Shown: in pieces, positions 43,073-64,000 of the stretch
Layout of the letters: the number at the start of each line of letters is the position of its first letter
Numbering within the stretch: the stretch's first letter is position 1
DNA from: a virus
DNA: 64,000 nucleotides
Strand: one strand, 5' to 3'
IMG/VR virus record: IMGVR_UViG_3300029381_000501
The notes under the pieces: model-generated
What the model was told of the DNA's origin: nothing
The model's database searches: none
Seen by the model: only the letters and a program-made list of their open reading frames with translations
Made by a program: the position numbers and the translations under genes

Positions 43073-43087
43073 CGGTGTCTTTTCTAT

Positions 43088-44692: not shown

Positions 44693-44718
44693 GTTTATAT
44701 AGAGAAATAATGTCAATT

Positions 44719-44755: not shown

Positions 44756-44774
44756 CACCCCCAGCTTTTTCTTT

Positions 44775-45120: not shown

Positions 45121-45160
45121 TCTATATGTAAAGAAGAAGGATGAGTCGAAAGACTCACCC
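45121..45160 (-). terminator. Hairpin GGGTGAGTC-tttc-GACTCATCC + T-rich tract overlapping the stop of the 45155-45535 gene
   Basis: 9-bp stem with one mismatch. Confidence 0.4.
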
Positions 45161-45535
45161 TTTTCTTCTGTAGCAAGCCTGTACCAATCCACCAAGCAAA
45201 TAGCAAGCCTCCTCACCATACATATTTATCAAGAACTGTTCGGAAATATGCTGAACCACATGCAGCATTTCGTGGCTGAGGCTGTTCATGTATTCAGCCT
45301 TTGAAGTAGCCCATCCAATAACAACTACCGATTTACGAACATCAACGTTAGAGTAGGTGATACCCTTGTTAGGCTCACCTTCGAGCACGAGATTACAGGC
45401 ATCTTCGAGAGGAATGCCGCTGCACCCTAAATCCCGAAGATGCCTTCTTGCCTTCATGGCATCCTTTGAGTGAACATCGCACATTACGTGTACGGTCCAG
45501 TCATACCTATCTATGTAAATTTCCTGCTCAGTCAC
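45155..45535 (-). CDS. Small HExxH zinc-metallopeptidase-like protein
   Basis: 'SLSHEMLHVVQHISEQ' HExxH with a downstream Glu ('GEEACY'). Confidence 0.35.
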   Translation of the reverse strand: MTEQEIYIDRYDWTVHVMCDVHSKDAMKARRHLRDLGCSGIPLEDACNLVLEGEPNKGITYSNVDVRKSVVVIGWATSKAEYMNSLSHEMLHVVQHISEQFLINMYGEEACYLLGGLVQACYRRKG

Positions 45536-45573
45536 TCTCTAACTTAACATTTAACATTCAACACTTAACATTA

Positions 45574-45987
45574 CTACAAAATCTCTTCCCAAGGAATGCC
45601 CACACCATTAAACGATGTATCTGCATAGAAGCGGTTGAAGATGAAACCGTCCTGCTGATCCTCATCATCCACGTAGTCCTTGATGAACTGAGCCATCTGC
45701 TTCTCCTCCGTGATAGACGAGCCATAGAAATCAGCCAAGCACATATGTGCGATGTAAACCGCATCATAGCCCACATTGTTCTCCAGCACAATATTGTTCT
45801 TCTTCAAGATGTCCTCAATATCATCCTTGCTCATCATGCGGATGGGCTTACCGTTCTTCCGCATCTGCTTTACTGCCCACTCGCACATCTTCTTATTGAA
45901 ATGCCAGCCGTTGTATCTCAGGTAAGCCCTCATTTCTTCCGGCTGATAATCGTAGGCGTTCAAAGATTGTCTGTATTTTGTTCCCAT
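45574..45987 (-). CDS. Hypothetical protein
   Basis: 137-aa ORF. Confidence 0.35.
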   Translation of the reverse strand: MGTKYRQSLNAYDYQPEEMRAYLRYNGWHFNKKMCEWAVKQMRKNGKPIRMMSKDDIEDILKKNNIVLENNVGYDAVYIAHMCLADFYGSSITEEKQMAQFIKDYVDDEDQQDGFIFNRFYADTSFNGVGIPWEEIL

Positions 45988-46068
45988 AATCTCAATCGTT
46001 TAAAATGAAAAGAGTGAAGAGGAAAAGCAAATGAATTTTTCACTCTTCGTTCTTCACTCTTCACTTAA

Positions 46069-48716: not shown

Positions 48717-48760
48717 AGGAGTGAGCACTAAGCCCACTCCTCATTTAATATTTATTCCAG
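48717..48760. terminator. Bidirectional hairpin GGAGTG...CACTCC + T-rich tract
   Basis: Between convergent genes. Confidence 0.4.
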
Positions 48761-49606
48761 CCTATCCAGCTCATCAACCGCATCCATCATGATCCTGTCA
48801 ATATTCTGATTAGCGAAGTTGATGCTCTCGGTATCGCTCGCCTTATCCCTCATCTTCTTCCATCGCTTCATCTGTTTCTCTGCCAGCTCGATTACTCTCA
48901 CCTTGGCAGCTTCCTTGGAGTTTTGAAAGTGGAAATACTCACCTATATTCGTGATTCTTTTATCAATCGGAACGTTCTTCGATTTCAGGCGGTCCACGTT
49001 CGCCATGGTCTTCTCCATTTCATCCTTGTAGTTATACCACTTGCTCTTGGTTCTCTGCAAGCTGCTCTGCTCGTTTGGAGTATAGAGAAGAGAGCGAAGG
49101 AAAGGAATATCCTTGGTTTCCGTGTCGCTTCCGTGCTTGATAACACCGATAGCACGCTCTGTAAAGGTAGCAGCGCCACCGCCTATACCACCGATGTAAT
49201 GATTCAGCATACTAGGGTTCGTCACCATATCCAGGAAACTATTACCCAGCATATCCTCATTACCCTTGGCTACATCGTTGGTCTGGGCATTCACCCATTT
49301 ATTTACAGCCATATACCCGTCAGGCGTGCCTTTGTTGGCTCTCTGCCAAGCAGGGGAATTTTCATTCCAGTCACCACGTCTTTCAATCGGCGCACCCTTC
49401 CAGTCGGTGTTTAACTCCCATTCCACGAAAGGAGATAGGGCAGAAGGAGAGATAGCCTTGATCGTCTCGTTCAATGGCTCCTTGCCAGCCGAAGAGTTAC
49501 CGAGATAGTCCATCACCGGCACAAGCTGCGACATACAGCCCACGGCATCCAAGGCAGGATTCTTCTGTCCGCTTACGTTTGGCGAGAAGGTCAAGCCAGC
49601 CGCCAA
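48752..49606 (-). CDS. Stand-alone paralogue of the C-terminal ~280-aa domain of the giant protein (putative virion-targeting/anchoring module); apparent TTG start
   Basis: Shared blocks with the giant C-terminus: 'QRTKSKWYNYKDEM' / 'QRTRSKWYNYSDEL'; 'VNKWVNAQTNDV' / 'INKWANQGTNSI'; 'DWKGAPIERRGDWNENSPAWQRA' / 'DWTGRPFYRDYDYLDKAPRWKRA'; 'AVDELDRLE' / 'AVNDLDKLN'. Confidence 0.5.
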   Translation of the reverse strand: MAAGLTFSPNVSGQKNPALDAVGCMSQLVPVMDYLGNSSAGKEPLNETIKAISPSALSPFVEWELNTDWKGAPIERRGDWNENSPAWQRANKGTPDGYMAVNKWVNAQTNDVAKGNEDMLGNSFLDMVTNPSMLNHYIGGIGGGAATFTERAIGVIKHGSDTETKDIPFLRSLLYTPNEQSSLQRTKSKWYNYKDEMEKTMANVDRLKSKNVPIDKRITNIGEYFHFQNSKEAAKVRVIELAEKQMKRWKKMRDKASDTESINFANQNIDRIMMDAVDELDRLE

Positions 49607-50680: not shown

Positions 50681-50716
50681 AAGGTGGAGTACTGTCTGTA
50701 CTCCACCTTATTATTT
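50681..50716. terminator. Bidirectional terminator: perfect 12-bp hairpin AAGGTGGAGTAC-tgtct-GTACTCCACCTT flanked by A/T runs
   Basis: Read directly in the sequence. Confidence 0.6.
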
Positions 50717-51649
50717 ATACTTTTTGTCATACTCTTCAATTGCCAGCAAAACATTCTTCCGAAAAACGGCAGATGGATGGTCGTCTTTCTTCGATGTGCT
50801 TCTTCCACCTTCCATGGTCGCAATCTTATCTAGTACCCTAATCATAATATTGGGGTCTGCACCAATAAATTGCAAGAAACGATATGAAGCAATATCGGCT
50901 TCTATCTCCTGCTCTCTAGAATAGCGCATCTTATAATTGCTAGTTGCAAGATAAGCATCCCTATCAAAGGCGTGACCGGCAAGTAAAACGTTTTGCTGAT
51001 ATTGAGCATTGTTAGAAGAACTGTAGGTAGAGTTGTATGCGCCAGAGTATGCTACGGCTGTAGCAGCCAGTGCGCCACCAAGTTCTGCCCACATCTTGTT
51101 ATTGCGCTCTTTCTTGTTTGCGGCGTATATGTGGTTAAGAGAATGCTTACCAACGAAATGTTGTATTTCATGTGCTAGTACGGCAACAATCTCCATTGTG
51201 TCCAGCTTCTCAATTAATCCTGTGTTGAGAAAAATTAATCCAGTAGGATAGGTGGATGAGTTAAACTCATTGTTAGGATTTATATGAATCTCAATATCGC
51301 TATCAATCTTATTGAGATTAAAGATACTGTCAAGTTTTCCTAATAGCCCCTTGTATTTAAGATCACAATATTTGTTAGGCTTAATCTTACTTTTAATGGT
51401 GTTACATGTTAGAACGTACTCTGACAGAGATCTTTTTGCAGTCTTTGACTTTGCAGAATATATCTTGTCTATCTTCTGGTCGTACCAATGTCTCTTCCAC
51501 CAAAACTCTGCAACCTTATCTTTCGGAAGACTTTTTAGTTCTGATGGTACATCGTATTGTTTGATATAATTCTCACATTCCCATGAACTTTGAGCATGGC
51601 ACATAGAAGCCAAAGCTATTATGGTTACTATTGATAATATCCTTTTCAT
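50711..51649 (-). CDS. Secreted M48-family zinc metalloprotease
   Basis: Signal peptide 'IVTIIALASMCHAQ'; 'VAVLAHEIQHFVGKHS' (HExxH) and 'EQEIEADIASYRFL' (third-ligand Glu motif). Confidence 0.55.
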   Translation of the reverse strand: MKRILSIVTIIALASMCHAQSSWECENYIKQYDVPSELKSLPKDKVAEFWWKRHWYDQKIDKIYSAKSKTAKRSLSEYVLTCNTIKSKIKPNKYCDLKYKGLLGKLDSIFNLNKIDSDIEIHINPNNEFNSSTYPTGLIFLNTGLIEKLDTMEIVAVLAHEIQHFVGKHSLNHIYAANKKERNNKMWAELGGALAATAVAYSGAYNSTYSSSNNAQYQQNVLLAGHAFDRDAYLATSNYKMRYSREQEIEADIASYRFLQFIGADPNIMIRVLDKIATMEGGRSTSKKDDHPSAVFRKNVLLAIEEYDKKYK

Positions 51650-52194
51650 AAGCTTTCATTTATATAATCAAATTCTCCGTATTTTAAACAAACAAAATAG
51701 CCTTTTTTATCAGCTGTATTTTTTGTAACATACAACTTAAATGCATATTCATCAGAATTAACAGGTGAAGTGCCTCCAAAATAGCATTTAAATTTGTTGT
51801 CGTCAATCTCTTCTTGCATTTCATATTTATTTCCAAGTATGCCTTTAAGATATTCTCTGCCGCTCTTTGCCTCTTCTGCAGTATCGCATAAAAATCCCAT
51901 CATACATTCGCTGAGATAACTTCTGACCCCATCATTTTGGAATGTAAAAAATATAAAGTCGAATTTTATCCCGGCATAAGTTACATTATCAAAACCTATT
52001 GCATTTAATTCGTCCATGCTAGGATCTCCATACTTGTTAGTAAGTATAGTTCTAGCAGTTGGTCTGTCAGAGCCAAACTTAACCCCACACATTTCTGTTA
52101 CAACATCACTTTGAGCAAAACAGCTAGCCGATGCGATAGCTAACAGAAAGAATAATATAATTTTCCTCATAAGTTTAATATTTTGTTTTTGCAA
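51646..52194 (-). CDS. Secreted hypothetical protein
   Basis: Signal peptide 'ILFFLLAIASASCFAQ'; 182 aa. Confidence 0.4.
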   Translation of the reverse strand: MQKQNIKLMRKIILFFLLAIASASCFAQSDVVTEMCGVKFGSDRPTARTILTNKYGDPSMDELNAIGFDNVTYAGIKFDFIFFTFQNDGVRSYLSECMMGFLCDTAEEAKSGREYLKGILGNKYEMQEEIDDNKFKCYFGGTSPVNSDEYAFKLYVTKNTADKKGYFVCLKYGEFDYINESL

Positions 52195-52259
52195 AAGTAC
52201 AAAAAATAGCGATAGGTTGTATCACCTACCGCCACTTTTCTTTGTAGTTTATACGGATT

Positions 52260-55200
52260 CTAGTTTAACTTATCCAAGTCATTCACAGCCTCCTGCATCT
52301 TTCGATTGATGTCTTCATTAATCGACTTGATTACTTCTGGGTTAGATGCCTTGTTTAATTGTCTCTTCTTCTTCGAGATATAACTATCAGCAGCTTCCCA
52401 GATGTTATACGCCTTTCCTTCCTTGCCGTGAGTAAAGTTGAACTTCTTGGCATTATTCTCCATGTTCTTCAAAACATCAGGCGTATTAGTCTTCAACTGC
52501 TTGATATTATATTCCGTCTGCTTCAACTCGTCGGAATAGTTATACCATTTCGATCTAGTTCGCTGCATATCTTGCCCCTCTTTTGGAGTATAGTTAAACA
52601 CCCTGTAAAGAGGGATTTGATTTTTATCAAACTTTTCAAATTCATCAGAGAATCCCTTGCTGAATCCTTCTTTGTTCTTTGCTCCAGATATAACGCCCTT
52701 ACCAACAGCTTCTAACGTTTTGTAAGTTCTGCCAATAGTTGAACCCATACCACCGGTGTAACTATCTATCAAATGTTGCCAAGCGTAAGGTGCAGTAAGA
52801 TAATCAAGAGTTTCATTCCCCTTCATATCTGCATTAGAACTATCAATACTATTTGTGCCTTGGTTAGCCCATTTATTAATACTCATATAAATACCATTGG
52901 TGTTATCGTATGCCCTCTTCCATCTTGGAGCCTTATCAAGATAGTCATAATCACGATAGAAAGGTCTGCCTGTCCAGTCTCGATTGAAGGCAAGTTCCAT
53001 AGCAGGAGATATGGTTGTTGGAGTTACTGCAAGTATTGCATCCTCTCCAAGTTCCTTAATGTTGTTGCTTGGCGAATGGTGTCCAAGGAAATCAGAGGCT
53101 GGTACTAATTGTGCCATCTGTCCCAAAATATCATAACCGATAGGTGTACTACTCTTCAACTTATCATTCACAACATAGCCAGCCGCAATATCGCCCAACC
53201 CGAAGAACGCTCTTAACTCGATGGCAATAGGAATAGTCTTAAAGTTTCCGTGCCCAGTATAGATACAGATATTATTTCTGCGTTTCCATTCTGGTAACTC
53301 TGCGTATGGATCCTTCACGCCCTTTCTGTCCTTCTCGTCCTCATTATTAATCAGGTATTGATTGATTAACGCCTGAGCAATACCGAGTCCTAAAGGTAAC
53401 ATACCGAATGAAACGGCAGATGTCTTCCATGCACTCTTATAGTTCTTGAAAAACAGATTTGCACCTTGCACTCCGGCGTTATAGAACTGCGTATGATTCT
53501 TCATCCAGCTATTGAAGAAACCGAGAGTACCACGGAATTTCTTATCAATATTGCTATCATTTGAAGTTTTCAAGGTCTTGATGGCATCTCCAGAACCGTG
53601 CCGGTTGAAGTTTGTTGAAACCTCCTTGGCATCATAGATACTCCGTCCTACGCTTCTTCCGTGCTTTCGTGAAGTACAGTAAGTAGAGTAGCGAGCTACG
53701 TTTTCAATAATCTCGTTGGCAGCCTCAATAAAGGTTCCACCTTCCTTGATTTTCTTGACAAACCATCCGTCTGCATCCTTACTTCCTTTCTTGATCAGGT
53801 TATCATATTCCTCAATCAGGCTTTCCAGTTTCTTGATTTGAACAAAACCAGTCTGACCGCCATTGTCCATAAACTCTTTGAACATTCTTTCTCGTTCATT
53901 ATTTGTATCAAGCTTACCGTCTCTATACTTGCGGAACATAGTAAGATAGTTTCCACTACCTTTTCCGTTCTTGATAGAAATCATGTTTCCTGCATATTCT
54001 TTCAAGAAGTCCTTGGTGTAGCTAAATCCTTCCTTGGTAACATTGGCTGATGCAAAAGTTAAGTCACGCAACATATTAGACATCATAAAGTCTGGATTCA
54101 GCGATGTATTGAATTGGGCAATTTTTCTCGTAACCTTCGCATCAAATTGCGTTACCGCATTTCTGGTTCCTGAATCTTTCAAAAGACCATTGAGTGCTTG
54201 GGCTGCTCTAGGGTTACCCTGACAGACAAAGCTTCTTTTCCTTCCTGCGATATACACATCAATGATATGTTCAGACTTATCCTTGGCACGCTGGAATTTA
54301 AAGCCAATGTTAGGCTTTCTGTGTGAAAGCTTTGCATCACCAGTTGCTTTCTTCGCCTGCATGCTGTCCTCAAAGTTTTGCAGTATATTGCTTATTTGCT
54401 GCTGTGTGGCGTTCTCCGGAATTTGAGGTGTAACCTCTTCCCAAACTTCTTTACCATCTACTACGTGCTTCTCTAGCCAAGGATTCACTTCAACAAAGAT
54501 TTTATCTTTTGTATTACCAGTTTCATAGGCAGAAACAAATCTGGCAAAGTGCTGCTTTACTACATTCTTTCCGCCATTGATAAGCGAAGACTTTGCCATG
54601 GCGGATATTTGAGCCATAACATTAATGTCGCTCAGACTGCTTCTTCCCTTTGCATTTGCCAATACAGGACCAACAAAGTTGGAAGGATCTCCCTTTTCTC
54701 CGATATAACCATACACATCTTCTGCGGTTGTATCATCAAACTTTCTAAGAGGCACATACCATTGGAACATTCCCTTTAGATAATCTCTATCAGATTGATC
54801 AATAAAGCCGTTGTAGTATTCTTGGTCGATAACGTAATCTGTTGCAGCCTTCTTCTTTATCCAGAAGTCTTTTGCCAAATCGCTACCCATCTGGCTTTCT
54901 GCACTCATCACGTTGTCAATGGCAAGCTTGTCGTCGTATGGATCAGAGGTCTTGGCTATATTTTGCATACCATGGAATCCAGAATAATCGTGTTCGTCAG
55001 CAACAAAGTTAACGTCCACGTTGCTACGAATCCATTCGTCCATTTGCTCCAGGTACTCATCAAATCTGATGTTGCCTTTCTCTAGTTCGTCAGCCAAATC
55101 CTTCTGCTTGTCGTTCCAGTCCTTCATCAATGTCTTTGCTTTCGTAACATCGTCATTCATCATATCACGAATTGCGTCACGAACAAAGAATACACGGTTG

Positions 55201-58200
55201 CGCTCCAAACCGTGCTTGGTAATCATGTAGAGTTGTGCGTTTCTTAACTGCTCATCCTTATCGCTACCGCTCATGGTAGATACAACTTTCTTGAAAGTAT
55301 CATCAAGAGGCTTCGTGTATTTTCGGTCATATTCTTCTGCCTTTTGCTGTACGATACTGTCAATGCGGTTCTGCGCCTGCAATGGATTGAAGGCAGAAGG
55401 AATATCCGTCCACGCATTCTTTTCACCAGAGATTATTTCCATAGCCTCTTGCAAAGACTGCATATTATCAACGGTACTTTCCTTGAAAGCATAGAGTTTT
55501 GTTCCGAGTCTGCGGTTATACTCCTCAATCTTAGATGCAGTCATAGGGGAGGTGCGGAAATGCACTTTTCCATCGGTAGCCTCCTCGAAGTCCTTATGAT
55601 TCAAGTCGAGCAGATAACCATGGTTCTTACCATCATTATCAAAGAACATTCCGTTTCTCTCTACGATGCTAGGCGTGTTGTCTCTCTCCAACTTATGCAG
55701 CAAGGCATTTCTTCTGATAGCAAAGTAACCATCACTCTCAGGATGTTTGGAGTAATTCTTGGCGAGCCACAAGAGATACTTAATATCCTTCGTGTTCGGC
55801 GCCACACGGTAGCCGATTTCTCTAAAGATATTTGTTACCTTGTTTTTCAGGTTATTCCAAAGCCCATGCTCGCCGTGTCCTTCTTCTGCCATTCTAGCAA
55901 TAGCCTCTTCAATGGCATTTCTGTAATCGAATGGGTTGTACTGTAGTTCCTTAACGACGAGTTTTTTGAGGTCGGCGTATTCCGGCTTATCAAGATTGAA
56001 GTAAATATCATCAAGGAATTTATCGTAGTTGTCGTTACCGAACAGTTCACGCATTCCTTTATGACCCACGATTTCGTGCCATACTGTTTTCTCAGCTGTG
56101 TAGCTGTCATGTACGTTTGGCATATACAGCACAACTTCACCTGTGCGTTCATCGTACCATCCTTCTACCTTTTCACCCTTTTCAAGCCTTGCCTTAGCCT
56201 CGGCATTGGTAACATCTTCGACACTTTGCAACATCTTGACTTTGCCGCCCGTAGCCTTTGCAACCTTTGCAACATGCTTTACTACAGCAGGAGCATCTTT
56301 AGAAATTGACACAGGTGAATTGTTATCATTTCTAAAATAAATCTCTTCATCTGTTAAATTTTTGCTTTCTTCAAGCAATTTCTTCCCAGAATCGTATGAT
56401 TTCTCAACTCCATTTAGTAACTTTGCAACAGATATAGAGTTGCTTGGTGCATCCGAATGTGGTTTGTCGGGATTCTCTCGCTCTCCAGGGGAGCCAAGTA
56501 ACTCTATTTTTGTTACCTCATAACTATGAGGCTTGTTTTCTTCACCACCTCTAAACTCTTGCATGGTTGTTTTCACACGGTATGTCTTGCCGTCCAATTG
56601 TACGGCACCATACAAACGATGAACCAAAATATTGTCACCGTATCCATTTTCTATGCTGCGATTTCTATTTTCATCCTTGTTGTAGTCTGGGTGAATCTCC
56701 GCTTCGATACTCTCGTGAATAACATCTGTAAGCTTTGGAAGAACGGAAAGATGAATATCAAGACCATCGCTCTTCTTCACAGCACTCTCAGACAAGTATT
56801 TTTCAACAGCCTTTTTACTAATAGTATAAGGCGTTCCATCACGCATTGTAGGCAATTCCGATTTTCCTGTAGTTACAAGATTATCTTTCGCCCATGCCTT
56901 TGCATTTGCCAATATCTCATTCTCGGTAACTCCAAAGCTATGTTTTTCCACCGGCACAACATTAACGCTTTCCTTATTCAGGTTAGGCATAACAATACCT
57001 TTTTCCTCTACAGCTCTGTCTCTTACTCCATCAAAATTCTCCTTGGAGTCTGAGAATGTCTTGCCTAGTTCCATACGGAAGTGGGTGCTGCCGTTGGTCT
57101 TTGATGCGATATATCTCTGCATTTCATCCTCTGTCATACCGGCAAGCTTGCAAGACAGTTTCTTCAACTCATCAAACACCGCCTGCTTGTTTTCCTGATA
57201 CTCCAGCTTTTGAAGCTCATCATATTTGGTGTAATAGTTAGCCATCTTATCTCTCCAGTAGTTCGGTTTGTCACTGCCAGTGAAAGATATACCATAGTTC
57301 ATCCAAGAACCAGCCAAAGACACATCAATACCTGTCTTACCATAAGAAACGTTTTTTACGCCCTTGATTTCCATAATATCCTTGACAGCAGCCTTGGCTT
57401 TCTTCTGCATTTTGAGATTCGTATCAATGATACGCTCAGGCATTTCAATATCCCGAAGATCATTGAAAAAATCTTCAATCTTATCGTAATGACCGCTCAG
57501 ATCAATCTTTTCAGGATAACCTGCCTTGCTTCTCAAAGCGGCATCGGAAATCTTATCCAATACAACTACTCGGCATGCAACTCTGGTTCCTGCCTGCTGG
57601 AAAAGGATATCAGGAAGATTTACCTCAGCACGCATGGCAACGTTCTTCTGCTCGTTATACCACTTGTCAAACTTCTTGTCTGTTGAGCCTCTAGGTATGA
57701 TTGCTACGATACGACCTCCTTCATCCAAGTGCTTGAATGCCTTGTCAACATGTTGGATAGCCAATGCGCCAGCCTTGCCGAAAGGAGGATTCATTACAAT
57801 TACATCGTGCTTGTTGTTCAATGCGTAGTTCTCAAACGTATTGTTCAAGAACTTTCTGCCCAAGCCGCCAGCCTTCAACTGCAACTTCGTGAAGAGACTT
57901 TGACTAGGCTCGATGCTTACCATTTCGTTAGTCTTAGGCACGTATCTTGCGATGGCTCCATGACCGGCACTAGGCTCCAATACAGAGTCACCTTCACCCA
58001 ATCCTGCCCATTCTACCATCTTGTAGCCAAGAGGCTCTGGGGTAGGGAAGTAGTCGCTACCTTCACGATTGTTCTTGTTTAGTTTCTGATTGCTGTAATA
58101 ATCAAGCACTGCATTATCGAATGGATCATTCTCACTTGGTGTTGCTGCATCAAATTCCTTTCCGCCTACACCCTGGTTCTCTACCGGTACAATACCGCTA

Positions 58201-61200
58201 TGTTCCAAGATACCATTGGCGAAACTGTCACGCAAGTTTCTTGCCTGACTGCCCAATGCAAGGTTCTCGGTAGTACTTACCTGATTATTGAACTTTTCTC
58301 CAAAAAGCATCATTTCAGAGTTGAGACCCAATATAGGGTACTCAAAGATGGCATTGCTCATATTACCGATACGGTAAATGCGACCTTCAATCTGCAAGGC
58401 TGTGATAGGACTCTGAGGCAATGCGAGGGTGATACAGACACGCTGGTGCTTGCTTGTGGTATCATGAAGTGAGATTCCTTCCTTTCCAGAAGCTTCCTGA
58501 ATCACGATGATATTCTTGCCGCTATCGTCATCATTAAAGGTATCAACCGCCTTATCCTTCACCTTCTTGCTTTCCTTTCCGCTGAAGAACAACACATTCT
58601 TCTCTCCAAACACCTTGGCAATCTGTTCTCTTGGCATACTGTAGTCAAGAGTCTTCTCCCATTCCAGAAGGTCTGCATACTTGTTTCGGAACTCGGTGCA
58701 TTCCTTGATGTATTCGTCACGCTCCTTGCCTGGTTTCATCATCTTGATCTGCTCGTTGGCAACTCTAAGCATGTAAGCAAATGGAGCCTCCAAAGGTTCC
58801 TTGCTCTCTACACGGCGATGGAAGATAACAACCTTTCTACCCAAATCCAAGTGCTGTTTGATTCTGTCAATGGCAGCAGATACTTTCATAGTCTCGAAAA
58901 GGGCACTGCCATAATTGTAATCACCGATGGTCTTGCTGTACGCATCATGCAGATACTTTGTCTTCAATGTGTCCTGCACCGCATGATTGAAATCCTCGGC
59001 ATGATCAGGAGCCACGGTAGGGAAGTCTCTAGAATAGTCGTAAGGACTATCAATAATTCTTCCGCTCATTGTGCCAAGTGTGTTCTGCAAGTAATCAGAG
59101 AAAGCAACCTCCTGCTTGGCTACGGCATCCGGGTTACTGATGCTCTGCTCCAGACGATGGTAGCGGAACTTGTATGCAGCGCCAAAGTGATTAAGATAGA
59201 ACTGGGTTCTTCCAGCCATTCCTCTCTCGTCCGTTTCCGGGTACTTAAAGATATAGCCCTCAACATAATCAAGATTCTCTCTAGTATTGAAAGGTGTAGC
59301 AGATAGGAATATGGTCTTTGTGTTTTTCCATGAATCCTTTGCCTGCTCTTTCAGTTTAGGCTCTACCTTATTATATGTATCCCTTGCCTTGATGAAATCC
59401 TGATATGCTTTTCCAAGCTTAGGGAAAGTCATTCCGTCGGCAGGAGCAAAGCTGTTCAAATCCCTTGGAAGGCTCTTTAATGTGGCATTATCCACATCTC
59501 TGTCTGTAGCACTTGGATGACTATTCTTGTACTCTTTCTTTATGCGTTCGATTTCCTTTATTCTTAACGCATCAAATTTTTCAGCAGCACCATTCATTTT
59601 TTGATACTCAGGGTTGATGCTCTGCAATCTCTGGAAACAATGATTCTCGTCACGATTGGTAACCATGTAGTGCTGCATGCTTCTGGCAGTTTCAGTACCC
59701 TTCTTGTTTTCCATGATACGGTGGCACTCGTCATAGATAACGGCATCCCATTCTGTTTCAAGAAGTTTCTTATTCAGACCAAAGTTTGCAAATGTAGTGA
59801 TTACCATTCCTTCTCCACTTTCTGTAGTAGCAGTGGTTCCACGCATTTTTGCCCAGGAGTCAAGATCCTTAATGTCCAGACCAAGATTCTTTCCGTCCTT
59901 TATCCAGTCGGAAACCTTCTTCTGGCTAGGAGTAATAAAGAGTATTCTGCCTTTGCCCTGCTTAGCCAATCGCTTAGCAATGCCAAGACCTGTGTATGTT
60001 TTTCCTGTACCAGTTCCATTGGTAAACAGGTAGCCCTTACCGTAAGCATGTTCACGGTCTGTATGTTCCTTTCCGAAGAACTGAGTTTCAGCCTTCAATA
60101 CGTCTTCCTGCTGCTGAGGCAAGAGATAAGGCAAAGTCTCCTCGATGTTCTTCATGTCGCCCACCTTCACTTCGATAGGTTCGGCTTCCATCTGTCTCTT
60201 ATACTTCTCTTCAAGAGGTTCTTTTAGCTTCTTTTTCAGCTGCTGGTTTCCATAGATGCTGCTCCACTCCCTGATTGTATGGGTCTCACCATCCATTTCG
60301 TAAGGAGTGTTCCAATAGTCTTCAATGAATCTGTCAATATCATCATCACTAAGACCTATCATTTTCAGCTCCTCGCCTTCCTCGGCAAGCATGGCAGCTT
60401 TCCACTCGTTGAACTTGTAGATACCCTCCTTAATCTTCAAGACAGCACCGTTAAGGTGCATCTTTACCAACTCAGGCAGCATTTCTATTTGCTCTGGTGT
60501 AAGGTTGAGCTTCTTGAAAGGAGTCAGGGCAATCTTGGCATAGCCTTGCCCTGCCTTCTTCCATCTAGCCCAGAAGTCTTTCTTCTTCTTCTCATAGTCA
60601 GCTCTTTCCTGCTTTAGCCGTTCTGCTGTGCTATCTGGGAAAGTAGTTCCTTGCTTGGCTGTAGGCTTCCGTCCTGCATTCGTGTCAGCAGGTCTGTTGC
60701 TGCTTTCACGTCCACTTCCTCCAGATACATGTCCATTTCCGCTAGCTGAACCGCCTCCGTTGGTGTCAGAACCTCCGGCAGGTACTGCGCCCACTCCGGA
60801 TGAATTTCCTTCACCTTGCTTATTGCCTTGTTCTCCAGCAGATAGAGTAGTGTCGTTCTGATTACTCTCTCCGCCATTTCGCTCTCCGGGTGCAGCTTCG
60901 TTGCCTGTTCCTCTATCCACTGGTCCATCAGGTCTTCCGCTTTCTCGTCCTCGTCCCAGTCCCAATCCTTCGCCGCCTGTAGTATCGGCAGCATCCAGCT
61001 GTGTTCCGTTTTCTGTTCCGCTATTGTCGGAAACATTCTCATGTCTATTTCTAACATCGTTCCAAATTTTAAAGTAAGATATTGCGTTTATGATATTGCT
61101 CTTGTCGCCACGCAAATATGCGAGTGCGGCAGGTATCAATTCTTTATTTTCCTCAGAGGTCAGTTCATTAATCTCTGATTCCGTGAGAGGGTTCTTTGAA

Positions 61201-63998
61201 GAAACAGCTTCTCGTTCCTCCAAGTCCATCTGTTCCCAAGGCTTGTCGATTATATCAGCCTCAGCCTTTCCTATCTCTTCGGCGATAATCTTCTGTCTCT
61301 CAGCAAGACCTTTACCCTCTTGCTTCAATCTGTCGTCTAAGAGATGCTTCAATTCCTTGGCAGCCGTGGTGGTCCGCTCTGCATCACCGCTTTCCTTGGC
61401 GGCAGCATAATCTTGTCGAGCCTTGCCAATCTTCAAGTTCATGGCAAATTCACCTTTCTGCTTCTGCTCTTCATGGAATGCGTCAGCAGCCTGCTTCAAA
61501 CCTTCCATAGGATCTGCGGACGGTTCTTTTGAGTCTTTCTTAACGGAATCCTTTGCTGATTCAAGTTCTTTATTCCACATGTCAGCCACAGATGCCTCGT
61601 CAAGAACACCGTTCATATTCTGGTGATCTTTATACGCAAACTCAAATTCACCTTCTGCTGCTTTGATCTCCTTCTCACTCTTGGCTTCTTTTAAAGCCTT
61701 TACGTATTTTTCCTTAGCTCTATCAAGTTTTTCCTGATGATCTCTAATTTCCTTTGGAGTAAAGCCTGCTGAATTTGGCTTGTCTTCATCCTCAGACTTT
61801 ACTCTTCCTTCTCCTGCTTCTGCTGGTTCATTTCCTCCTGATGCTTCTTGTTGAGGTTTTTCAACGCCTGAAACATCATTGCCTCCTTCATTTTCTGAAT
61901 GTCCTGTTCCATAATCTTGCCATTTTTTAAAGTTCAAATACTCATTAATTAACTCTTCCTTGGTAGGAGCTGCCTCAAAGATACTGCCCTCGCCAGTGTT
62001 TCTTGCTGCTGCGATGCGGTTGTATTCGTCAAGCAAATCTCTGAAATCTGCAACCTTGCCTTCCAGAGCCAAAGCCATCATCTGAGAGATAGAAGGGTAG
62101 CGCTTAGCCGCATCCTCACCGAACATGTCTGGTGTTCTCAGCAACGTATCAACCTTATTACCGCCCTGTCTTGCCTCATAGAGCAATTGGATAGCCTGAT
62201 CAATCTCATCACGAAGAGAGAACTCGCCCAACTTCATGTTGTCCATTACCGAGCGGATAGCGTTGATAGCCTTATTCTTCACCGTAGAGTCGATGCCTAG
62301 CATTCTGATAGTCTCTGGCTTGAAGATTGAACCCAAAAGAAGGTTCTTCACATACTCCCTGCCTTGTGCGGAAAGCCGCTCAGGACTATCCATCATCTGT
62401 GCCACCTCGTTCTGTCCGATGATGCCTTTATCTACTAACGTCTTCACCAAGTCATTTATTGCCTTGGAATTGTTAAAGAAAGCATCAAGAGAACCATTTC
62501 CTTCAATCTCGGCAACAATCGCGCCTACTTCGTCAGAAGTCAAGGTCTTAGCATTCTTAACAGCCTGTTCTGTATTACTTTCGCTCTTTGTCTCTTTCTT
62601 GTTAAACAAGTCGAATGTCTTACTGTTGAGTGGAAGCTTCTCGTCAGGAACAAAGTAAACAATACCTTTGAATCCAGCTCCCTTAATCTGTTCTGGAGTC
62701 CAACCGAAACCTTCTGCATTATCCTCCAAATCCTCATAGTACTTACTGTCTTTTCCGGCTTGCTCTGCCAGTTTCTTACCCATTACAGTACCATTACCGC
62801 TAAGAGTAATACCTTCCTGTACGACTGGAACGTTCTTCAAGGCAAGTCCATTGAAATCATTTCCTATCTTCTGCGTAAACAGACGTGACTCCTTATCCCG
62901 GTAAGAACGAGAATTGGAAGATGTTCCATCTTCGTTAACAGGGAATCCCTCGCTTTGTTTGAAGTCGTTGAATGGATCATGCGAAGTGGTAAGACCAGAA
63001 GTTTCACCATAATAATATGTACCACGAATCTTCGTTCCATCTGCTAAGGTGATAGAACCTCTTCTACCTTTAATCTTTTTGGAAGCCTCGAATCTTTCTT
63101 TTACTTTAGGTGAAACCACACCAGCTTCCTGCGCTACACCATCAGCAGCTCTTTCTGGTTCAACTGGTCTTTCCACGGTCTCAGCCACCTTCTTGGCAGT
63201 CATTGCCTTTTTGATATTCTGAGCGTGGTCCAACTGCTTCTTGGCAGCTTCAATGGTCTGATTCTTCAAAGCCTCCTGCTCCATGATGTCGTTAGGCTCG
63301 GCGGTATAGTCCACCTTCATCTTCTCGGCATCCTTCAAAGCATTCTCAGCCTTCTTAATCTGTCCGTCCACCACCTTCTCAGCATTCTCCCCGAAATCCT
63401 CAGTAAGAATCTCCGCACTCTGTTCAGGAGTCATACTAGCATAGTCTGGCGTAGGCCTTCCCTTGCTATCCGTAGCCATAGGAACATCGGAACCATCGGC
63501 AAACTTTCGGGTCTGCTGAGGCTGCTCTTGTGGTGCTAAGTTCTCATTTGTGGTATTATCTTTGTCCGATGTGGTATCAACTTTTGTTAAAGTGGTATCA
63601 TCTTTTGTTAAATCACCCCCATTTGTGGTACTATCTTCCGGTTTTGTGGTATTATATTTTGGTGCCTCCTGCTCCTGCTGAGGCTTGGCTGCATCCTGCA
63701 TAGCCTGCTCTTGTGCCGCCTGATTGTAAGGCTCAGAGTTCTTCATCTGCAATCTCTGACGATATTCTGCAGCAAACTGTTCGATAGGCTGGTTTTGGAG
63801 CAGAGTAACCTCGTCTGCCTTCACGTAAACCATTTCCTTTGTATTAGGATCTAAGCAGACAAGCATATCGCCGCTGCCTTCCTTGGCTCTACCTGTAGTC
63901 TGGTCGAAGGCAACATCACCCGAACCAACAAGAAATGTTCTTCCGTTGCTGTCCTGCACGTACAAAGCCTGTTCGCCATTCATTGGCTGACCGTTCAA
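52260..63998 (-). CDS. Giant polyvalent protein (at least 3912 aa; ORF reaches the window edge so the N-terminus may lie outside): DExH/SNF2-type helicase + N6-adenine DNA methyltransferase + HExxH zincin domain + C-terminal anchoring-like domain; DarB-like anti-restriction protein candidate
   Basis: Helicase motif I 'TNGTGTGKTYTG' (~60010), motif II 'YDECH' (~59715), motif VI 'QIEGRIYRIG' (~58380); MTase motif I 'LEPSAGHGA' (~57965) and 'NPPFG' (~57785); 'VWHEIVGHKGM' HExxH (~56070); long disordered S/T/G/N/E-rich N-terminal third; uninterrupted 11.7-kb ORF. Confidence 0.75.
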   Translation of the reverse strand: MNGQPMNGEQALYVQDSNGRTFLVGSGDVAFDQTTGRAKEGSGDMLVCLDPNTKEMVYVKADEVTLLQNQPIEQFAAEYRQRLQMKNSEPYNQAAQEQAMQDAAKPQQEQEAPKYNTTKPEDSTTNGGDLTKDDTTLTKVDTTSDKDNTTNENLAPQEQPQQTRKFADGSDVPMATDSKGRPTPDYASMTPEQSAEILTEDFGENAEKVVDGQIKKAENALKDAEKMKVDYTAEPNDIMEQEALKNQTIEAAKKQLDHAQNIKKAMTAKKVAETVERPVEPERAADGVAQEAGVVSPKVKERFEASKKIKGRRGSITLADGTKIRGTYYYGETSGLTTSHDPFNDFKQSEGFPVNEDGTSSNSRSYRDKESRLFTQKIGNDFNGLALKNVPVVQEGITLSGNGTVMGKKLAEQAGKDSKYYEDLEDNAEGFGWTPEQIKGAGFKGIVYFVPDEKLPLNSKTFDLFNKKETKSESNTEQAVKNAKTLTSDEVGAIVAEIEGNGSLDAFFNNSKAINDLVKTLVDKGIIGQNEVAQMMDSPERLSAQGREYVKNLLLGSIFKPETIRMLGIDSTVKNKAINAIRSVMDNMKLGEFSLRDEIDQAIQLLYEARQGGNKVDTLLRTPDMFGEDAAKRYPSISQMMALALEGKVADFRDLLDEYNRIAAARNTGEGSIFEAAPTKEELINEYLNFKKWQDYGTGHSENEGGNDVSGVEKPQQEASGGNEPAEAGEGRVKSEDEDKPNSAGFTPKEIRDHQEKLDRAKEKYVKALKEAKSEKEIKAAEGEFEFAYKDHQNMNGVLDEASVADMWNKELESAKDSVKKDSKEPSADPMEGLKQAADAFHEEQKQKGEFAMNLKIGKARQDYAAAKESGDAERTTTAAKELKHLLDDRLKQEGKGLAERQKIIAEEIGKAEADIIDKPWEQMDLEEREAVSSKNPLTESEINELTSEENKELIPAALAYLRGDKSNIINAISYFKIWNDVRNRHENVSDNSGTENGTQLDAADTTGGEGLGLGRGRESGRPDGPVDRGTGNEAAPGERNGGESNQNDTTLSAGEQGNKQGEGNSSGVGAVPAGGSDTNGGGSASGNGHVSGGSGRESSNRPADTNAGRKPTAKQGTTFPDSTAERLKQERADYEKKKKDFWARWKKAGQGYAKIALTPFKKLNLTPEQIEMLPELVKMHLNGAVLKIKEGIYKFNEWKAAMLAEEGEELKMIGLSDDDIDRFIEDYWNTPYEMDGETHTIREWSSIYGNQQLKKKLKEPLEEKYKRQMEAEPIEVKVGDMKNIEETLPYLLPQQQEDVLKAETQFFGKEHTDREHAYGKGYLFTNGTGTGKTYTGLGIAKRLAKQGKGRILFITPSQKKVSDWIKDGKNLGLDIKDLDSWAKMRGTTATTESGEGMVITTFANFGLNKKLLETEWDAVIYDECHRIMENKKGTETARSMQHYMVTNRDENHCFQRLQSINPEYQKMNGAAEKFDALRIKEIERIKKEYKNSHPSATDRDVDNATLKSLPRDLNSFAPADGMTFPKLGKAYQDFIKARDTYNKVEPKLKEQAKDSWKNTKTIFLSATPFNTRENLDYVEGYIFKYPETDERGMAGRTQFYLNHFGAAYKFRYHRLEQSISNPDAVAKQEVAFSDYLQNTLGTMSGRIIDSPYDYSRDFPTVAPDHAEDFNHAVQDTLKTKYLHDAYSKTIGDYNYGSALFETMKVSAAIDRIKQHLDLGRKVVIFHRRVESKEPLEAPFAYMLRVANEQIKMMKPGKERDEYIKECTEFRNKYADLLEWEKTLDYSMPREQIAKVFGEKNVLFFSGKESKKVKDKAVDTFNDDDSGKNIIVIQEASGKEGISLHDTTSKHQRVCITLALPQSPITALQIEGRIYRIGNMSNAIFEYPILGLNSEMMLFGEKFNNQVSTTENLALGSQARNLRDSFANGILEHSGIVPVENQGVGGKEFDAATPSENDPFDNAVLDYYSNQKLNKNNREGSDYFPTPEPLGYKMVEWAGLGEGDSVLEPSAGHGAIARYVPKTNEMVSIEPSQSLFTKLQLKAGGLGRKFLNNTFENYALNNKHDVIVMNPPFGKAGALAIQHVDKAFKHLDEGGRIVAIIPRGSTDKKFDKWYNEQKNVAMRAEVNLPDILFQQAGTRVACRVVVLDKISDAALRSKAGYPEKIDLSGHYDKIEDFFNDLRDIEMPERIIDTNLKMQKKAKAAVKDIMEIKGVKNVSYGKTGIDVSLAGSWMNYGISFTGSDKPNYWRDKMANYYTKYDELQKLEYQENKQAVFDELKKLSCKLAGMTEDEMQRYIASKTNGSTHFRMELGKTFSDSKENFDGVRDRAVEEKGIVMPNLNKESVNVVPVEKHSFGVTENEILANAKAWAKDNLVTTGKSELPTMRDGTPYTISKKAVEKYLSESAVKKSDGLDIHLSVLPKLTDVIHESIEAEIHPDYNKDENRNRSIENGYGDNILVHRLYGAVQLDGKTYRVKTTMQEFRGGEENKPHSYEVTKIELLGSPGERENPDKPHSDAPSNSISVAKLLNGVEKSYDSGKKLLEESKNLTDEEIYFRNDNNSPVSISKDAPAVVKHVAKVAKATGGKVKMLQSVEDVTNAEAKARLEKGEKVEGWYDERTGEVVLYMPNVHDSYTAEKTVWHEIVGHKGMRELFGNDNYDKFLDDIYFNLDKPEYADLKKLVVKELQYNPFDYRNAIEEAIARMAEEGHGEHGLWNNLKNKVTNIFREIGYRVAPNTKDIKYLLWLAKNYSKHPESDGYFAIRRNALLHKLERDNTPSIVERNGMFFDNDGKNHGYLLDLNHKDFEEATDGKVHFRTSPMTASKIEEYNRRLGTKLYAFKESTVDNMQSLQEAMEIISGEKNAWTDIPSAFNPLQAQNRIDSIVQQKAEEYDRKYTKPLDDTFKKVVSTMSGSDKDEQLRNAQLYMITKHGLERNRVFFVRDAIRDMMNDDVTKAKTLMKDWNDKQKDLADELEKGNIRFDEYLEQMDEWIRSNVDVNFVADEHDYSGFHGMQNIAKTSDPYDDKLAIDNVMSAESQMGSDLAKDFWIKKKAATDYVIDQEYYNGFIDQSDRDYLKGMFQWYVPLRKFDDTTAEDVYGYIGEKGDPSNFVGPVLANAKGRSSLSDINVMAQISAMAKSSLINGGKNVVKQHFARFVSAYETGNTKDKIFVEVNPWLEKHVVDGKEVWEEVTPQIPENATQQQISNILQNFEDSMQAKKATGDAKLSHRKPNIGFKFQRAKDKSEHIIDVYIAGRKRSFVCQGNPRAAQALNGLLKDSGTRNAVTQFDAKVTRKIAQFNTSLNPDFMMSNMLRDLTFASANVTKEGFSYTKDFLKEYAGNMISIKNGKGSGNYLTMFRKYRDGKLDTNNERERMFKEFMDNGGQTGFVQIKKLESLIEEYDNLIKKGSKDADGWFVKKIKEGGTFIEAANEIIENVARYSTYCTSRKHGRSVGRSIYDAKEVSTNFNRHGSGDAIKTLKTSNDSNIDKKFRGTLGFFNSWMKNHTQFYNAGVQGANLFFKNYKSAWKTSAVSFGMLPLGLGIAQALINQYLINNEDEKDRKGVKDPYAELPEWKRRNNICIYTGHGNFKTIPIAIELRAFFGLGDIAAGYVVNDKLKSSTPIGYDILGQMAQLVPASDFLGHHSPSNNIKELGEDAILAVTPTTISPAMELAFNRDWTGRPFYRDYDYLDKAPRWKRAYDNTNGIYMSINKWANQGTNSIDSSNADMKGNETLDYLTAPYAWQHLIDSYTGGMGSTIGRTYKTLEAVGKGVISGAKNKEGFSKGFSDEFEKFDKNQIPLYRVFNYTPKEGQDMQRTRSKWYNYSDELKQTEYNIKQLKTNTPDVLKNMENNAKKFNFTHGKEGKAYNIWEAADSYISKKKRQLNKASNPEVIKSINEDINRKMQEAVNDLDKLN

Positions 63999-64000
63999 TG

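What the first reader, a model, noticed from the sequence alone, without database searches (positions are those of the whole stretch)
52260..63998. Giant (>3900 aa) multi-enzyme polyvalent protein: helicase + N6A-methyltransferase + zincin, DarB-like
A single uninterrupted 11.7-kb ORF that reaches the window edge; the N-terminus may lie outside the window. It encodes a DExH/SNF2-like helicase (GTGKT / DECH / QIEGRIYRIG), an N6-adenine methyltransferase (LEPSAGHGA / NPPF), an HExxH metallopeptidase-like domain and long low-complexity linkers. This architecture (methyltransferase plus helicase in a very large protein) is that of phage P1 DarB, a capsid-packaged anti-restriction protein, and of the polyvalent proteins described for phages and conjugative elements. 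A version this large in a Bacteroidetes-type temperate phage, with additional unassigned domains between the methyltransferase and zincin regions and a portable C-terminal module, is worth characterising. It is probably injected with the DNA to pre-empt host defences.
Basis: partly seen in the sequence, partly recalled or inferred. Interest (0 to 1): 0.75.

Follow-up and report, generated by a model that had tools for sequence, protein, structure and literature searches.

The report
Giant phage polyvalent ejection protein
This is a real, uninterrupted gene for a roughly 4,900-residue multi-enzyme "polyvalent" protein of a Prevotella/Segatella gut prophage, probably packed in the virus head and injected with the DNA; it is a typical member of a protein class already described in many phages.

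Summary
Window 52260-63998 (minus strand) is one stop-free 3,912-codon ORF that runs off the window. A 100%-identical overlapping contig shows the start lies about 1,022 codons further on, giving about 4,934 aa.

Supported domains, in order:
- DdrB-like ParB
- Strawberry-notch/SNF2-like SF2 helicase
- gamma-class N6-adenine methyltransferase
- LPD3
- zincin-like peptidase
- LPD38

Three corrections:
- The peptidase motif is HExxxH, not HExxH. This variant is already described for polyvalent proteins.
- The order is helicase then methyltransferase, the reverse of P1 DarB. Only the methyltransferase is detectably homologous to DarB.
- The ParB domain lacks its conserved arginine.

The size is ordinary for the family. 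Bacteroidales genomes carry stop-free relatives of more than 4,500 aa, Bacteroides phage BKO1-TP3 has a 5,553-aa "DarB-like" gene, and Burkholderia phage Bcep22 has a 4,602-aa one.

The C-terminal ~1,350 aa is a conserved block shared with Bcep22 gp75. Other proteins with the same LPD38 signature are phi24B gp47 (virion-associated) and PTXU04_00025 (needed for infection).

A close relative keeps the flanks at 91-97% DNA identity but carries a different methyltransferase-helicase cassette.

Verdict: new member of a known kind, of modest interest.

The parts
52260..63998 (-). Giant polyvalent-protein ORF. 3,912 codons plus the stop lie in the window. The 5' end lies about 3.07 kb beyond position 64000.
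63069..63998 (-). aa 1-310: unassigned region, T/D/Q/P-rich in part. It continues the off-window N-terminal ~1,022 aa.
   Evidence: No Pfam or PHROG hit. Composition. P0009 overlap.
62049..63068 (-). aa 311-650: DdrB-like ParB/Srx-superfamily module. The conserved Arg of the GNGRTM motif is replaced by Thr (GNGTVM at aa 401-406).
   Evidence: Pfam ddrB-ParB E=2.6e-4 on the segment, below its cut-off. BLAST to P1 DdrB E=1.6e-5. HHalign to P1 DdrB 96.1%, E=2.9e-9, 348 columns. Arg->Thr seen.
60216..62048 (-). aa 651-1261: unassigned K/E/A-rich helical stretches and a Gly/Ser-rich linker (aa ~1000-1100).
   Evidence: no family hit
58299..60215 (-). aa 1262-1900: SF2 helicase-like ATPase, Strawberry-notch/SNF2-like. 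Motif I GTGKT at 1330, II DECH at 1423, III SAT at 1566, VI QIEGRxxR at 1869. A 143-aa insert separates motifs II and III.
   Evidence: Pfam ResIII 1.4e-12, AAA_34 2.1e-6, Helicase_C_4 and Helicase_C weak. phrog_10691 5.7e-251. SsoRad54 is the weak best PDB hit. Motifs.
57549..58061 (-). aa 1980-2150: gamma-class N6-adenine DNA methyltransferase. TP motif at 1986, motif I LEPSAGHGA at 2007, motif IV NPPF at 2070.
   Evidence: PHROG DNA methyltransferase 6.6e-20. Pfam MTS 3e-4, below cut-off. PDB RsmC-type MTase 9e-5. HHalign to the P1 DarB MTase 95%, E=4e-8.
56541..56909 (-). aa 2364-2486: LPD3 domain, function unknown.
   Evidence: Pfam LPD3 9.4e-9, 35.9 bits against cut-off 27
55683..56288 (-). 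aa 2571-2772: zincin-like metallopeptidase of the HExxxH type. H2641, E2642, H2646, E2698 and E2705 are invariant. This is the start of the conserved C-terminal block.
53313..55682 (-). aa 2773-3562: conserved, mostly helical region of the C-terminal block. No Pfam family and no PDB fold match.
   Evidence: Model pLDDT 71.8. Foldseek against PDB found nothing. BFVD gave 74 phage polyvalent-protein matches. BLAST to Bcep22 gp75 E=8.6e-16.
52701..53312 (-). aa 3563-3766: LPD38 domain. Two hydrophobic segments lie around its start: aa 3526-3550 (just upstream of the Pfam hit) and aa 3588-3610 (inside it).
   Evidence: Pfam LPD38 3.7e-26 and 1.8e-27. Hydropathy.
52263..52700 (-). aa 3767-3912: conserved C-terminal tail. 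It has a PLYRVF motif at 3796 resembling PLxRFG, then a K/N-rich helical end.
48752..49606 (-). Separate 284-aa ORF, a diverged copy (34-35% identity) of the last 308 aa of the giant protein (partial LPD38 plus tail). It is absent from the close relative L007.
50711..52194 (-). Two small genes immediately downstream of the giant gene: a 182-aa unknown and a 312-aa M48-family peptidase. They form an accessory cassette that is absent from L007.

Best explanation
The gene encodes a phage-type large polyvalent protein of about 4,934 aa. It most likely works as an encapsidated ejection protein that carries enzymatic cargo.

Proposed mechanism:
1. The conserved C-terminal ~1,350 aa serve as the scaffold that gets the protein into the head and out through the short tail at infection. 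This block comprises the HExxxH zincin, about 800 helical residues, LPD38 with two adjacent hydrophobic segments, and the tail. It may also contribute to a trans-envelope conduit.
2. The variable N-terminal and middle parts are delivered with the DNA. These are the DdrB-like ParB-fold module, the SF2 translocase fused to an N6-adenine methyltransferase, and LPD3.
3. The translocase-methyltransferase pair is predicted to travel along the incoming genome and methylate or shield it in cis against host restriction.
4. The zincin probably cleaves the polyprotein into working pieces.

What is shown and what is inferred:
- Shown here: the ORF, the domain identities, the catalytic motifs, the mosaic structure and the phage context.
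- Shown in homologues only: virion association and requirement for infection.
- Inferred: packaging, injection, self-processing and anti-restriction for this particular protein.
For: - The ORF is intact and cannot be due to chance.
- Signature domains of phage-type polyvalent proteins are present. LPD38 and LPD3 pass the Pfam cut-offs and ddrB-ParB is weaker. [quoted passage not shown]
- Helicase motifs I, II, III and VI and methyltransferase motifs TP, I and IV are intact. The MTase is homologous to that of P1 DarB.
- The phage context includes a portal, capsid protein, adaptor, terminase-like gene, tail fibre/spike genes and an integrase in the same window.
- The C-terminal block ends collinearly in all relatives. 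It matches Bcep22 gp75, Bacteroides phage BKO1-TP3 gp55 and 74 BFVD phage proteins.
- Homologues: JC1 gp69, the homologue of Bcep22 gp75, was found in CsCl-purified virions by mass spectrometry (PMC9144972).
- Other LPD38-bearing giants (not compared with this protein here): phi24B gp47 is abundant in virions yet absent from the cryo-EM map, and was proposed to be an ejection protein. PTXU04_00025 is needed for efficient infection.
- A close relative (L007) shares the flanks at 91-97% nucleotide identity but has a different cassette in the order MTase then helicase. This fits a constant scaffold with exchangeable cargo.
Against: - There is no direct evidence for packaging, ejection, cleavage or anti-restriction of this protein.
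- About half of the residues have no assigned fold, and the PDB fold search of the C-terminal block returned nothing.
- The ParB-like module lacks the superfamily's conserved Arg, so at least one cargo domain may be inactive.
- The giant gene lies about 8 kb from the nearest tail gene and is separated from the structural block by small genes on both strands, so it is not embedded in that block.
- Two close relatives carry frame-breaking indels in this gene. Either the gene is dispensable in some prophages or those assemblies contain errors.
Confidence: 0.7

Rival explanations
1. A strict P1 DarB equivalent. On this view it is a dispensable, head-packaged anti-restriction accessory whose only role is cis-protection of the incoming DNA against type I restriction, and the rest of the protein is linker.
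For: Related phage genes are annotated 'DarB-like antirestriction'. The MTase is homologous to that of DarB. It also contains a DdrB-like module, so two P1 Dar components sit in one chain.
Against: - The domain order is reversed relative to DarB, no LPD36 was found, and the helicase does not align with DarB.
- The best-conserved part is the non-enzymatic C-terminal block.
- PTXU04_00025, an LPD38 protein with no other confident annotation, is needed for efficient infection.
Confidence: 0.15
2. A protein that is not packaged. It would be expressed inside the cell, in the lysogen or during replication, as a phage-encoded methyltransferase/helicase/nuclease complex, for example for epigenetic self-marking or superinfection exclusion.
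For: The gene lies at the edge of the structural region, next to morons (M48 peptidase, Bro-N). Solitary fragments of related proteins occur in bacterial chromosomal contexts.
Against: LPD38 and DdrB-ParB are reported only in phage-type, virion-linked polyvalent proteins. The homologue family Bcep22 gp75/JC1 gp69 was detected in virions, as was the LPD38-bearing phi24B gp47. In Bacteroides phage BKO1-TP3 the homologous gene abuts the portal gene.
Confidence: 0.1
3. An assembly chimera or decaying pseudogene. On this view the single ORF is an artefact of joining pieces, or an inactive relic.
For: Close relatives have the gene split, by a 44-nt deletion in L003 and a 1-nt deletion in an A-run in L007. 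The gene is mosaic relative to L007.
Against: - 3,912 codons without a stop (log10 P about -113).
- All catalytic motifs except the ParB Arg are intact.
- More distant homologues (73-78% identity) read through the positions where L003 and L007 are broken.
- Many Bacteroidales genomes carry stop-free ORFs of more than 4,500 aa of the same family.
Confidence: 0.05

Closest known systems
Phage-type large polyvalent proteins (Iyer, Burroughs, Anand, de Souza & Aravind 2017, J Bacteriol; PMC5512222)
   Same: - Many unrelated enzymatic domains in one giant chain encoded by a (pro)phage.
- LPD3, LPD38, DdrB-ParB, an MTase-SF2 helicase pair and a zincin hub domain, including the HEXXXH variant described in that paper.
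   Different: The helicase precedes the methyltransferase. The paper says the MTase is nearly always N-terminal to the helicase and is preceded by LPD36. No LPD36 was detected here, and the ParB Arg is missing.
Bcep22 gp75 / JC1 gp69 'DarB-like antirestriction protein' (4,515-4,602 aa; Lessievirus temperate podoviruses)
   Same: - A giant gene taking about a fifth of a ~60-kb temperate podovirus genome.
- A shared C-terminal block: gp75 aa 3845-4512 aligns with giant aa 3056-3826, E=8.6e-16.
- JC1 gp69 is virion-associated by mass spectrometry.
   Different: Only the C-terminal block is detectably similar by BLAST. The hosts are Burkholderia rather than Bacteroidales, and the cargo region is not collinear.
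Bacteroides phage BKO1-TP3 gp55 (5,553 aa, 'DarB-like antirestriction'), BS-TP4 and BF1-TP2
   Same: The host order is the same. The gene is giant and, in BKO1-TP3, lies next to the portal. The C-terminal ~1,100-1,300 aa are homologous at 27-28% identity.
   Different: The N-terminal and middle regions are not detectably similar. Those genes are even larger.
Stx phage phi24B gp47 (2,811 aa) and Escherichia phage PTXU04_00025 (2,198 aa)
   Same: Both are LPD38-bearing giant proteins. gp47 is in virions and was proposed to be an ejection protein. PTXU04_00025 is needed for efficient infection. The Stx-phage family phrog_616 matches giant aa 3263-3759, and a PTXU04 protein is a BFVD fold match.
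   Different: Their cargo differs. gp47 has LPD5, LPD1 and MuF-C, with no helicase-MTase reported, and they are roughly half the length.
Phage P1 DarB (2,255 aa) and DdrB (995 aa)
   Same: The MTase domain is homologous to DarB aa 90-277 (HHalign 95%). The ParB-like module is homologous to DdrB aa 26-422 (HHalign 96%). In effect two P1 Dar-system components are fused in one chain.
   Different: - DarB is ordered MTase then helicase; here the order is helicase then MTase.
- The helicases do not align.
- P1 is a myovirus with separate Dar proteins.
- DarB has no LPD38 block.
- The DdrB Arg is not conserved here.

Membership tests
Large polyvalent protein (Iyer et al. 2017) | Two or more domains of disparate biochemical activity in one polypeptide | tested here: met
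   ParB-like module, SF2 ATPase, N6A-MTase, LPD3, zincin and LPD38 are all in one ORF.
Large polyvalent protein (Iyer et al. 2017) | Signature LPD domains above the curated threshold | tested here: met
   LPD38 92.8 bits and LPD3 35.9 bits, each against a cut-off of 27.
Large polyvalent protein (Iyer et al. 2017) | Encoded by a phage or conjugative element near packaging or structural genes | tested here: met
   Portal, SU10-like capsid protein and adaptor, terminase-like gene, tail genes and integrase lie in the same window. The homologue in BKO1-TP3 abuts the portal.
Large polyvalent protein (Iyer et al. 2017) | Delivered into the host cell with the DNA | not testable with these tools
   Evidence comes only from other proteins: virion mass spectrometry for JC1 gp69 and phi24B gp47.
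P1 DarB-type methylase-helicase dyad | EcoKI/TaqI-like gamma-class N6A MTase with TP motif and NPP(Y/F) | tested here: met
   TPEPLG at 1986, LEPSAGHGA at 2007, NPPF at 2070. HHalign to the DarB MTase 95%, E=4e-8.
P1 DarB-type methylase-helicase dyad | Order LPD36 - MTase - SWI2/SNF2 helicase | tested here: not met
   The helicase (aa 1262-1900) precedes the MTase (aa 1980-2150). There is no LPD36 hit. The relative L007 does have MTase before helicase.
P1 DarB-type methylase-helicase dyad | Helicase homologous to the DarB helicase | tested here: inconclusive
   BLAST and HHalign align only the MTase. The profile was shallow (5 sequences).
P1 DarB-type methylase-helicase dyad | Head-packaged and protects DNA in cis from type I restriction | not testable with these tools
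   This needs virion proteomics and restriction assays.
SWI2/SNF2 / Strawberry-notch-like SF2 ATPase | Motifs I, II, III and VI, with a helical insert after motif II | tested here: met
   GTGKT at 1330, DECH at 1423, SAT at 1566, QIEGRxxR at 1869, with a 143-aa gap between motifs II and III. ResIII 48.3 bits and AAA_34 27.3 bits pass their cut-offs; Helicase_C_4 is below its cut-off.
DdrB-like ParB domain | Homology to the N-terminal region of P1 DdrB | tested here: met
   HHalign 96.1%, E=2.9e-9, 348 columns. Pfam gives 21.6 bits, below the cut-off of 27.6.
DdrB-like ParB domain | Conserved active-site arginine (GNGRTM) | tested here: not met
   The giant protein has GNGTVM. Eight of the ten aligned sequences have R; only the giant and P0004 have T.
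Zincin-like MPTase of polyvalent proteins | HEXXH or HEXXXH helix plus a downstream Glu on a second helix, after a 3-stranded sheet | tested here: met
LPD38-bearing ejection-type block (phi24B gp47, PTXU04_00025, Bcep22 gp75) | C-terminal LPD38 with the flanking conserved helical region, collinear to the C-terminus | tested here: met
   plus phrog_14770 and phrog_616.

The most novel reading that the evidence does not exclude
The giant gene may be a two-part system. A constant N-terminal segment and a constant ~1,350-aa C-terminal encapsidation/ejection scaffold would act as recombination flanks. Between them, whole anti-defence cassettes would be swapped among co-circulating Segatella phages; here a helicase-then-MTase cassette sits where a near-identical relative has an MTase-then-helicase one. 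The separately encoded 284-aa LPD38-tail paralogue would then be a functional partner, or a spare recombination end, rather than debris. That would make these genes a natural, programmable cargo-delivery platform for protein injection into gut Bacteroidales.
Probability: 0.2. Interest if true: 0.55.

Novelty: new member of a known kind. Interest (0 to 1): 0.3.

Why it matters
It adds a well-delimited, intact example from a Prevotella/Segatella prophage to a protein class that is predicted far more often than it is tested. It also gives a clean allelic comparison in which the flanks stay constant and the enzyme cassette is exchanged. That comparison could guide experiments on how giant proteins are packaged and injected, and on how gut phages evade restriction in hosts that are hard to manipulate genetically. 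It does not reveal a new kind of system. The domain set, the HExxxH peptidase, the size and the proposed injection role are all already in the literature or in annotated phage genomes.

Tried and rejected
- A search of the protein database with the full 3,912-aa sequence timed out. It was replaced by segment searches.
- Megablast of the gene against the phage collection found no match. Only protein-level similarity exists.
- NCBIfam gave nothing useful.
- phmmer of the whole protein against PDB sequences gave no hit at E<=0.01.
- Foldseek of the 1,200-residue C-terminal model against the PDB gave only spurious helical-repeat matches, best E=0.02. The ~800 aa between the zincin and LPD38 therefore remain without an assigned fold.
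- A segment-wise Pfam rescan of the unassigned regions added no domain.
- P0009, the off-window N-terminal 1,022 aa, has no Pfam, NCBIfam or PHROG hit.
- The first genome-contig scan, with a single sequence, found nothing. The alignment-based scan worked.
- No tRNA genes were found in the window.
- There are no internal repeats in the protein, and no other copy in the window except the 284-aa ORF.
- A conjugative-element origin was considered and rejected. The window carries a portal, capsid protein and adaptor, and LPD38 and DdrB-ParB are phage-type only.
- The single representative-library HMMER job was not used, because PHROGs, BFVD and the genome scan already showed that the family is large.
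Full report
**Observation**

The minus strand of window 52260..63998 carries one stop-free frame of 3,912 codons ending in a stop at 52260-52262. It reaches the last full codon of the window. With the local base composition a random frame would have a stop every ~16 codons, and log10 P of 3,912 stop-free codons is about -113.

Low-complexity linkers are real; residues 1001-1100 are 59% G/S/N/T/P.

The ORF continues outside the window. Protein P0009 (1,221 aa) matches giant residues 1-195 at 99.5% identity with its residues 1023-1217. Its contig L003 is 100% identical to the window over the 585-nt overlap. Three further relatives start with the same MAGDKFDQLYNALKADG-type N-terminus at the same distance. 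The complete protein is therefore about 4,934 aa.

**Domains**

Pfam on the whole protein gives the following:
- LPD38 at aa 3563-3766 (3.7e-26)
- ResIII at aa 1309-1440 (1.4e-12)
- LPD3 at aa 2364-2486 (9.4e-9)
- AAA_34 (2.1e-6)
- weak Helicase_C and Helicase_C_4
- MTS at aa 2032-2103 (3e-4)
- weak ddrB-ParB at aa 386-438

PHROGs gives very strong matches to families of giant phage proteins:
- phrog_10691: 5.7e-251 over aa 1262-2361
- phrog_14770: 3.4e-121 over aa 2590-3908
- phrog_616, the Stx-phage giant: over aa 3263-3759
- 'DNA methyltransferase' phrog_6263: 6.6e-20

Helicase. Motifs I, II, III (SAT at 1566) and VI are intact, with a 143-residue insert between II and III as in SNF2-like enzymes. 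The best, though weak, PDB sequence match is SsoRad54.

Methyltransferase. It has the TP motif, then motif I, then NPPF, in gamma-class order. It aligns with the P1 DarB methyltransferase at HHalign 95%, E=4e-8.

ParB-like module. Residues ~310-650 align with P1 DdrB residues 26-422 at HHalign 96.1%, E=2.9e-9. The superfamily's conserved arginine in GNGRTM is Thr here (GNGTVM). Eight of the ten aligned sequences keep Arg. This cargo domain may therefore be inactive or altered.

**The 'zincin'**

There is no HExxH anywhere in the ORF. The motif meant is H2641-E-I-V-G-H2646, which is HExxxH. In about 60 homologous segments the pattern GW(Y/F)D..TG - HE.V.H.G.R - ..EE..A..AE is conserved. In a 27-sequence alignment H2641, E2642, H2646, E2698 and E2705 are invariant.

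Iyer et al. explicitly describe an HEXXXH variant of the polyvalent-protein metallopeptidase (PMC5512222 section 8). The zincin call is therefore right in substance, wrong in the motif, and not new.

**Relation to DarB**

Iyer et al. define the DarB dyad as LPD36-MTase-SWI2/SNF2. Here the helicase precedes the methyltransferase and no LPD36 is detected. Only the methyltransferase aligns with DarB by BLAST (E=5e-4) or HHalign.

The same helicase-then-MTase order is collinear in many phage genes annotated 'DarB-like', including Serratia Parlo, Pseudomonas Skulduggery, Vibrio phages and Ruegeria 45A6. It is thus a populated sub-type and not a DarB orthologue.

**The C-terminal block**

Relatives diverge N-terminal of about aa 2555 and are collinear from there to the last residue.

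A model of aa 2540-3739 (pLDDT 71.8) has no PDB fold match. It matches 74 BFVD entries at E<=1e-3, nearly all of them terminal pieces of phage 'large polyvalent protein' genes. Examples are Ralstonia phage Alix, Escherichia phage PTXU04, and proteins with lytic transglycosylase or RelA/SpoT cargo.

Bcep22 gp75 residues 3845-4512 align with giant residues 3056-3826 (E=8.6e-16), and BKO1-TP3 gp55 with giant residues 2590-3768.

Two hydrophobic segments lie around the start of LPD38. One (aa 3526-3550) is just upstream of the Pfam hit and the other (aa 3588-3610) is inside it.

Published work on such proteins:
- JC1 gp69, the homologue of Bcep22 gp75, is found in purified virions by mass spectrometry (PMC9144972).
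- phi24B gp47, which carries LPD38, is abundant in virions, invisible in cryo-EM, and was proposed to be an ejection protein (bioRxiv 10.64898/2026.04.10.717836).
- PTXU04_00025, whose only confident annotation is LPD38, is required for efficient infection.

**Context and host**

The window is a temperate phage. It encodes:
- a tyrosine-integrase-like gene (2301-3683)
- an SMC-like ATPase and RecT
- a terminase-like gene
- a P22-like portal (35725-37749)
- an SU10-like capsid protein and adaptor
- tail fibre/spike genes
- a Bro-N/Ant gene

The closest protein homologues are from Segatella copri. A genome scan found the C-terminal block in 22 loci, nearly all in Bacteroidales genomes or MAGs, some inside contigs of 100-480 kb.

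In those loci stop-free frames of 4,100 to more than 4,700 aa are common, many still running off the 10-kb flank. BKO1-TP3 gp55 is 5,553 aa and Bcep22 gp75 is 4,602 aa. The size is therefore typical.

**Mosaicism**

Compared with contig L007, the window is 91.8% identical over 64000-63173, 90.5% over 62603-61800 and 96.9% over 56172-52261. It has no nucleotide similarity in between.

The L007 allele has a ParB domain with the Arg intact, an NPPF methyltransferase at aa ~986 of its middle ORF that is only 25% identical to the giant's, Strawberry-notch-like helicase domains (AAA_34, Helicase_C_4) in the same ORF, and an HExxH motif. Two near-identical scaffolds therefore carry non-orthologous cargo of the same functional kind.

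L007 also lacks the 182-aa plus M48-peptidase genes (window ~50688-52260) and the 284-aa ORF region.

L003 and L007 both have frame-breaking indels in the giant gene: a 44-nt deletion and a 1-nt deletion in an A-run, respectively. More distant homologues read through those points, so the window copy is the intact form.

**Mechanism**

Best-supported reading, with confidence about 0.7: this is an encapsidated ejection protein. Its conserved C-terminal block mediates incorporation and exit, and possibly helps form a conduit. Its exchangeable N-terminal and middle region delivers a translocase-coupled adenine methyltransferase and other modules that act on the incoming DNA against restriction. 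The HExxxH zincin processes the chain.

Domain identities, motifs, mosaic structure and context are shown here. Virion association and requirement for infection are shown only for other proteins of this class. Packaging, cleavage and anti-restriction of this protein are inferred.

Rivals are a strictly DarB-like dispensable accessory, a non-packaged intracellular enzyme, and an artefact or pseudogene. They are weighed in the Rival explanations section.

**Verdict**

The polyvalent-protein, phage, helicase, MTase, zincin-like and portable C-terminus calls are right. The HExxH motif, the DarB architecture and the claim of exceptional size are not.

This is a new member of a known kind. The allelic cargo swap and the reversed dyad are of modest interest, but nothing here lies outside the described class.

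Noticed in passing
window 48752-49606 (-): A separate 284-aa ORF is a diverged copy of the last 308 residues of the giant protein (partial LPD38 plus tail). BLASTP gives 35% identity (E=1e-54) and tblastn 34% (E=9e-44). It has no stop codons, is absent from the close relative L007, and has 260-468-aa homologues elsewhere. One of those (P0088, L031) sits among ordinary bacterial chromosomal genes.
   Followed up: partly
window 50711-52194 (-): A 182-aa unknown ORF and a 312-aa M48-family metallopeptidase lie directly downstream of the giant gene. Both are missing in L007, where the giant gene is followed at once by the Bro-N gene. This looks like an accessory (moron) cassette.
   Followed up: partly
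window 62781-62798 (-), giant aa 401-406: The ParB/Srx-type motif GNGRTM is GNGTVM here, so the conserved arginine is lost. Only one other homologue (P0004) shares the change. The domain may be inactive.
   Followed up: yes
L007 1-14698 versus window 52261-64000: A near-identical relative has a different middle cassette (an MTase only 25% identical, plus an HExxH motif) between flanks that are 91-97% identical at the DNA level. This is evidence for cassette exchange inside the giant gene.
   Followed up: partly
L003 ~4903 and L007 ~1239: Both close relatives have the giant gene broken, by a 44-nt deletion and by a 1-nt deletion in an A-run. These are either assembly errors or inactivated prophage copies.
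   Followed up: partly
P0009 aa ~390-600 (off-window N-terminal part; L003 1255-4920): There is a Gly/Ala/Ser-rich, mildly hydrophobic stretch of about 200 residues that resembles glycine-zipper-like membrane-active regions. It has no family hit.
   Followed up: no
L004 10001-15120: An 897-aa PBECR2 + DdrB-ParB protein, followed by an 809-aa unknown, sits between ordinary bacterial genes (TamB, QueC, RadA-like) with no phage genes nearby. It may be a domesticated or relic polyvalent fragment.
   Followed up: no
window 4624-5379 (+), 12418-15599 (+): An RNase H-domain protein lies near the integrase. An SMC/RecF-like ATPase (667 aa) is followed by RecT, which looks like a recombination module.
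   Followed up: no
window 1-4000, 18000-24000, 42000-46000: These segments have a GC content of 0.35-0.39, against 0.45-0.48 in the structural and recombination blocks. This suggests a mosaic origin of the phage genome.
   Followed up: no
window 38267-40423 (+): The capsid-protein ORF as listed starts at a TTG and is 718 aa. The SU10-type capsid match covers only aa 248-623, so the true start or an N-terminal extension needs checking.
   Followed up: no
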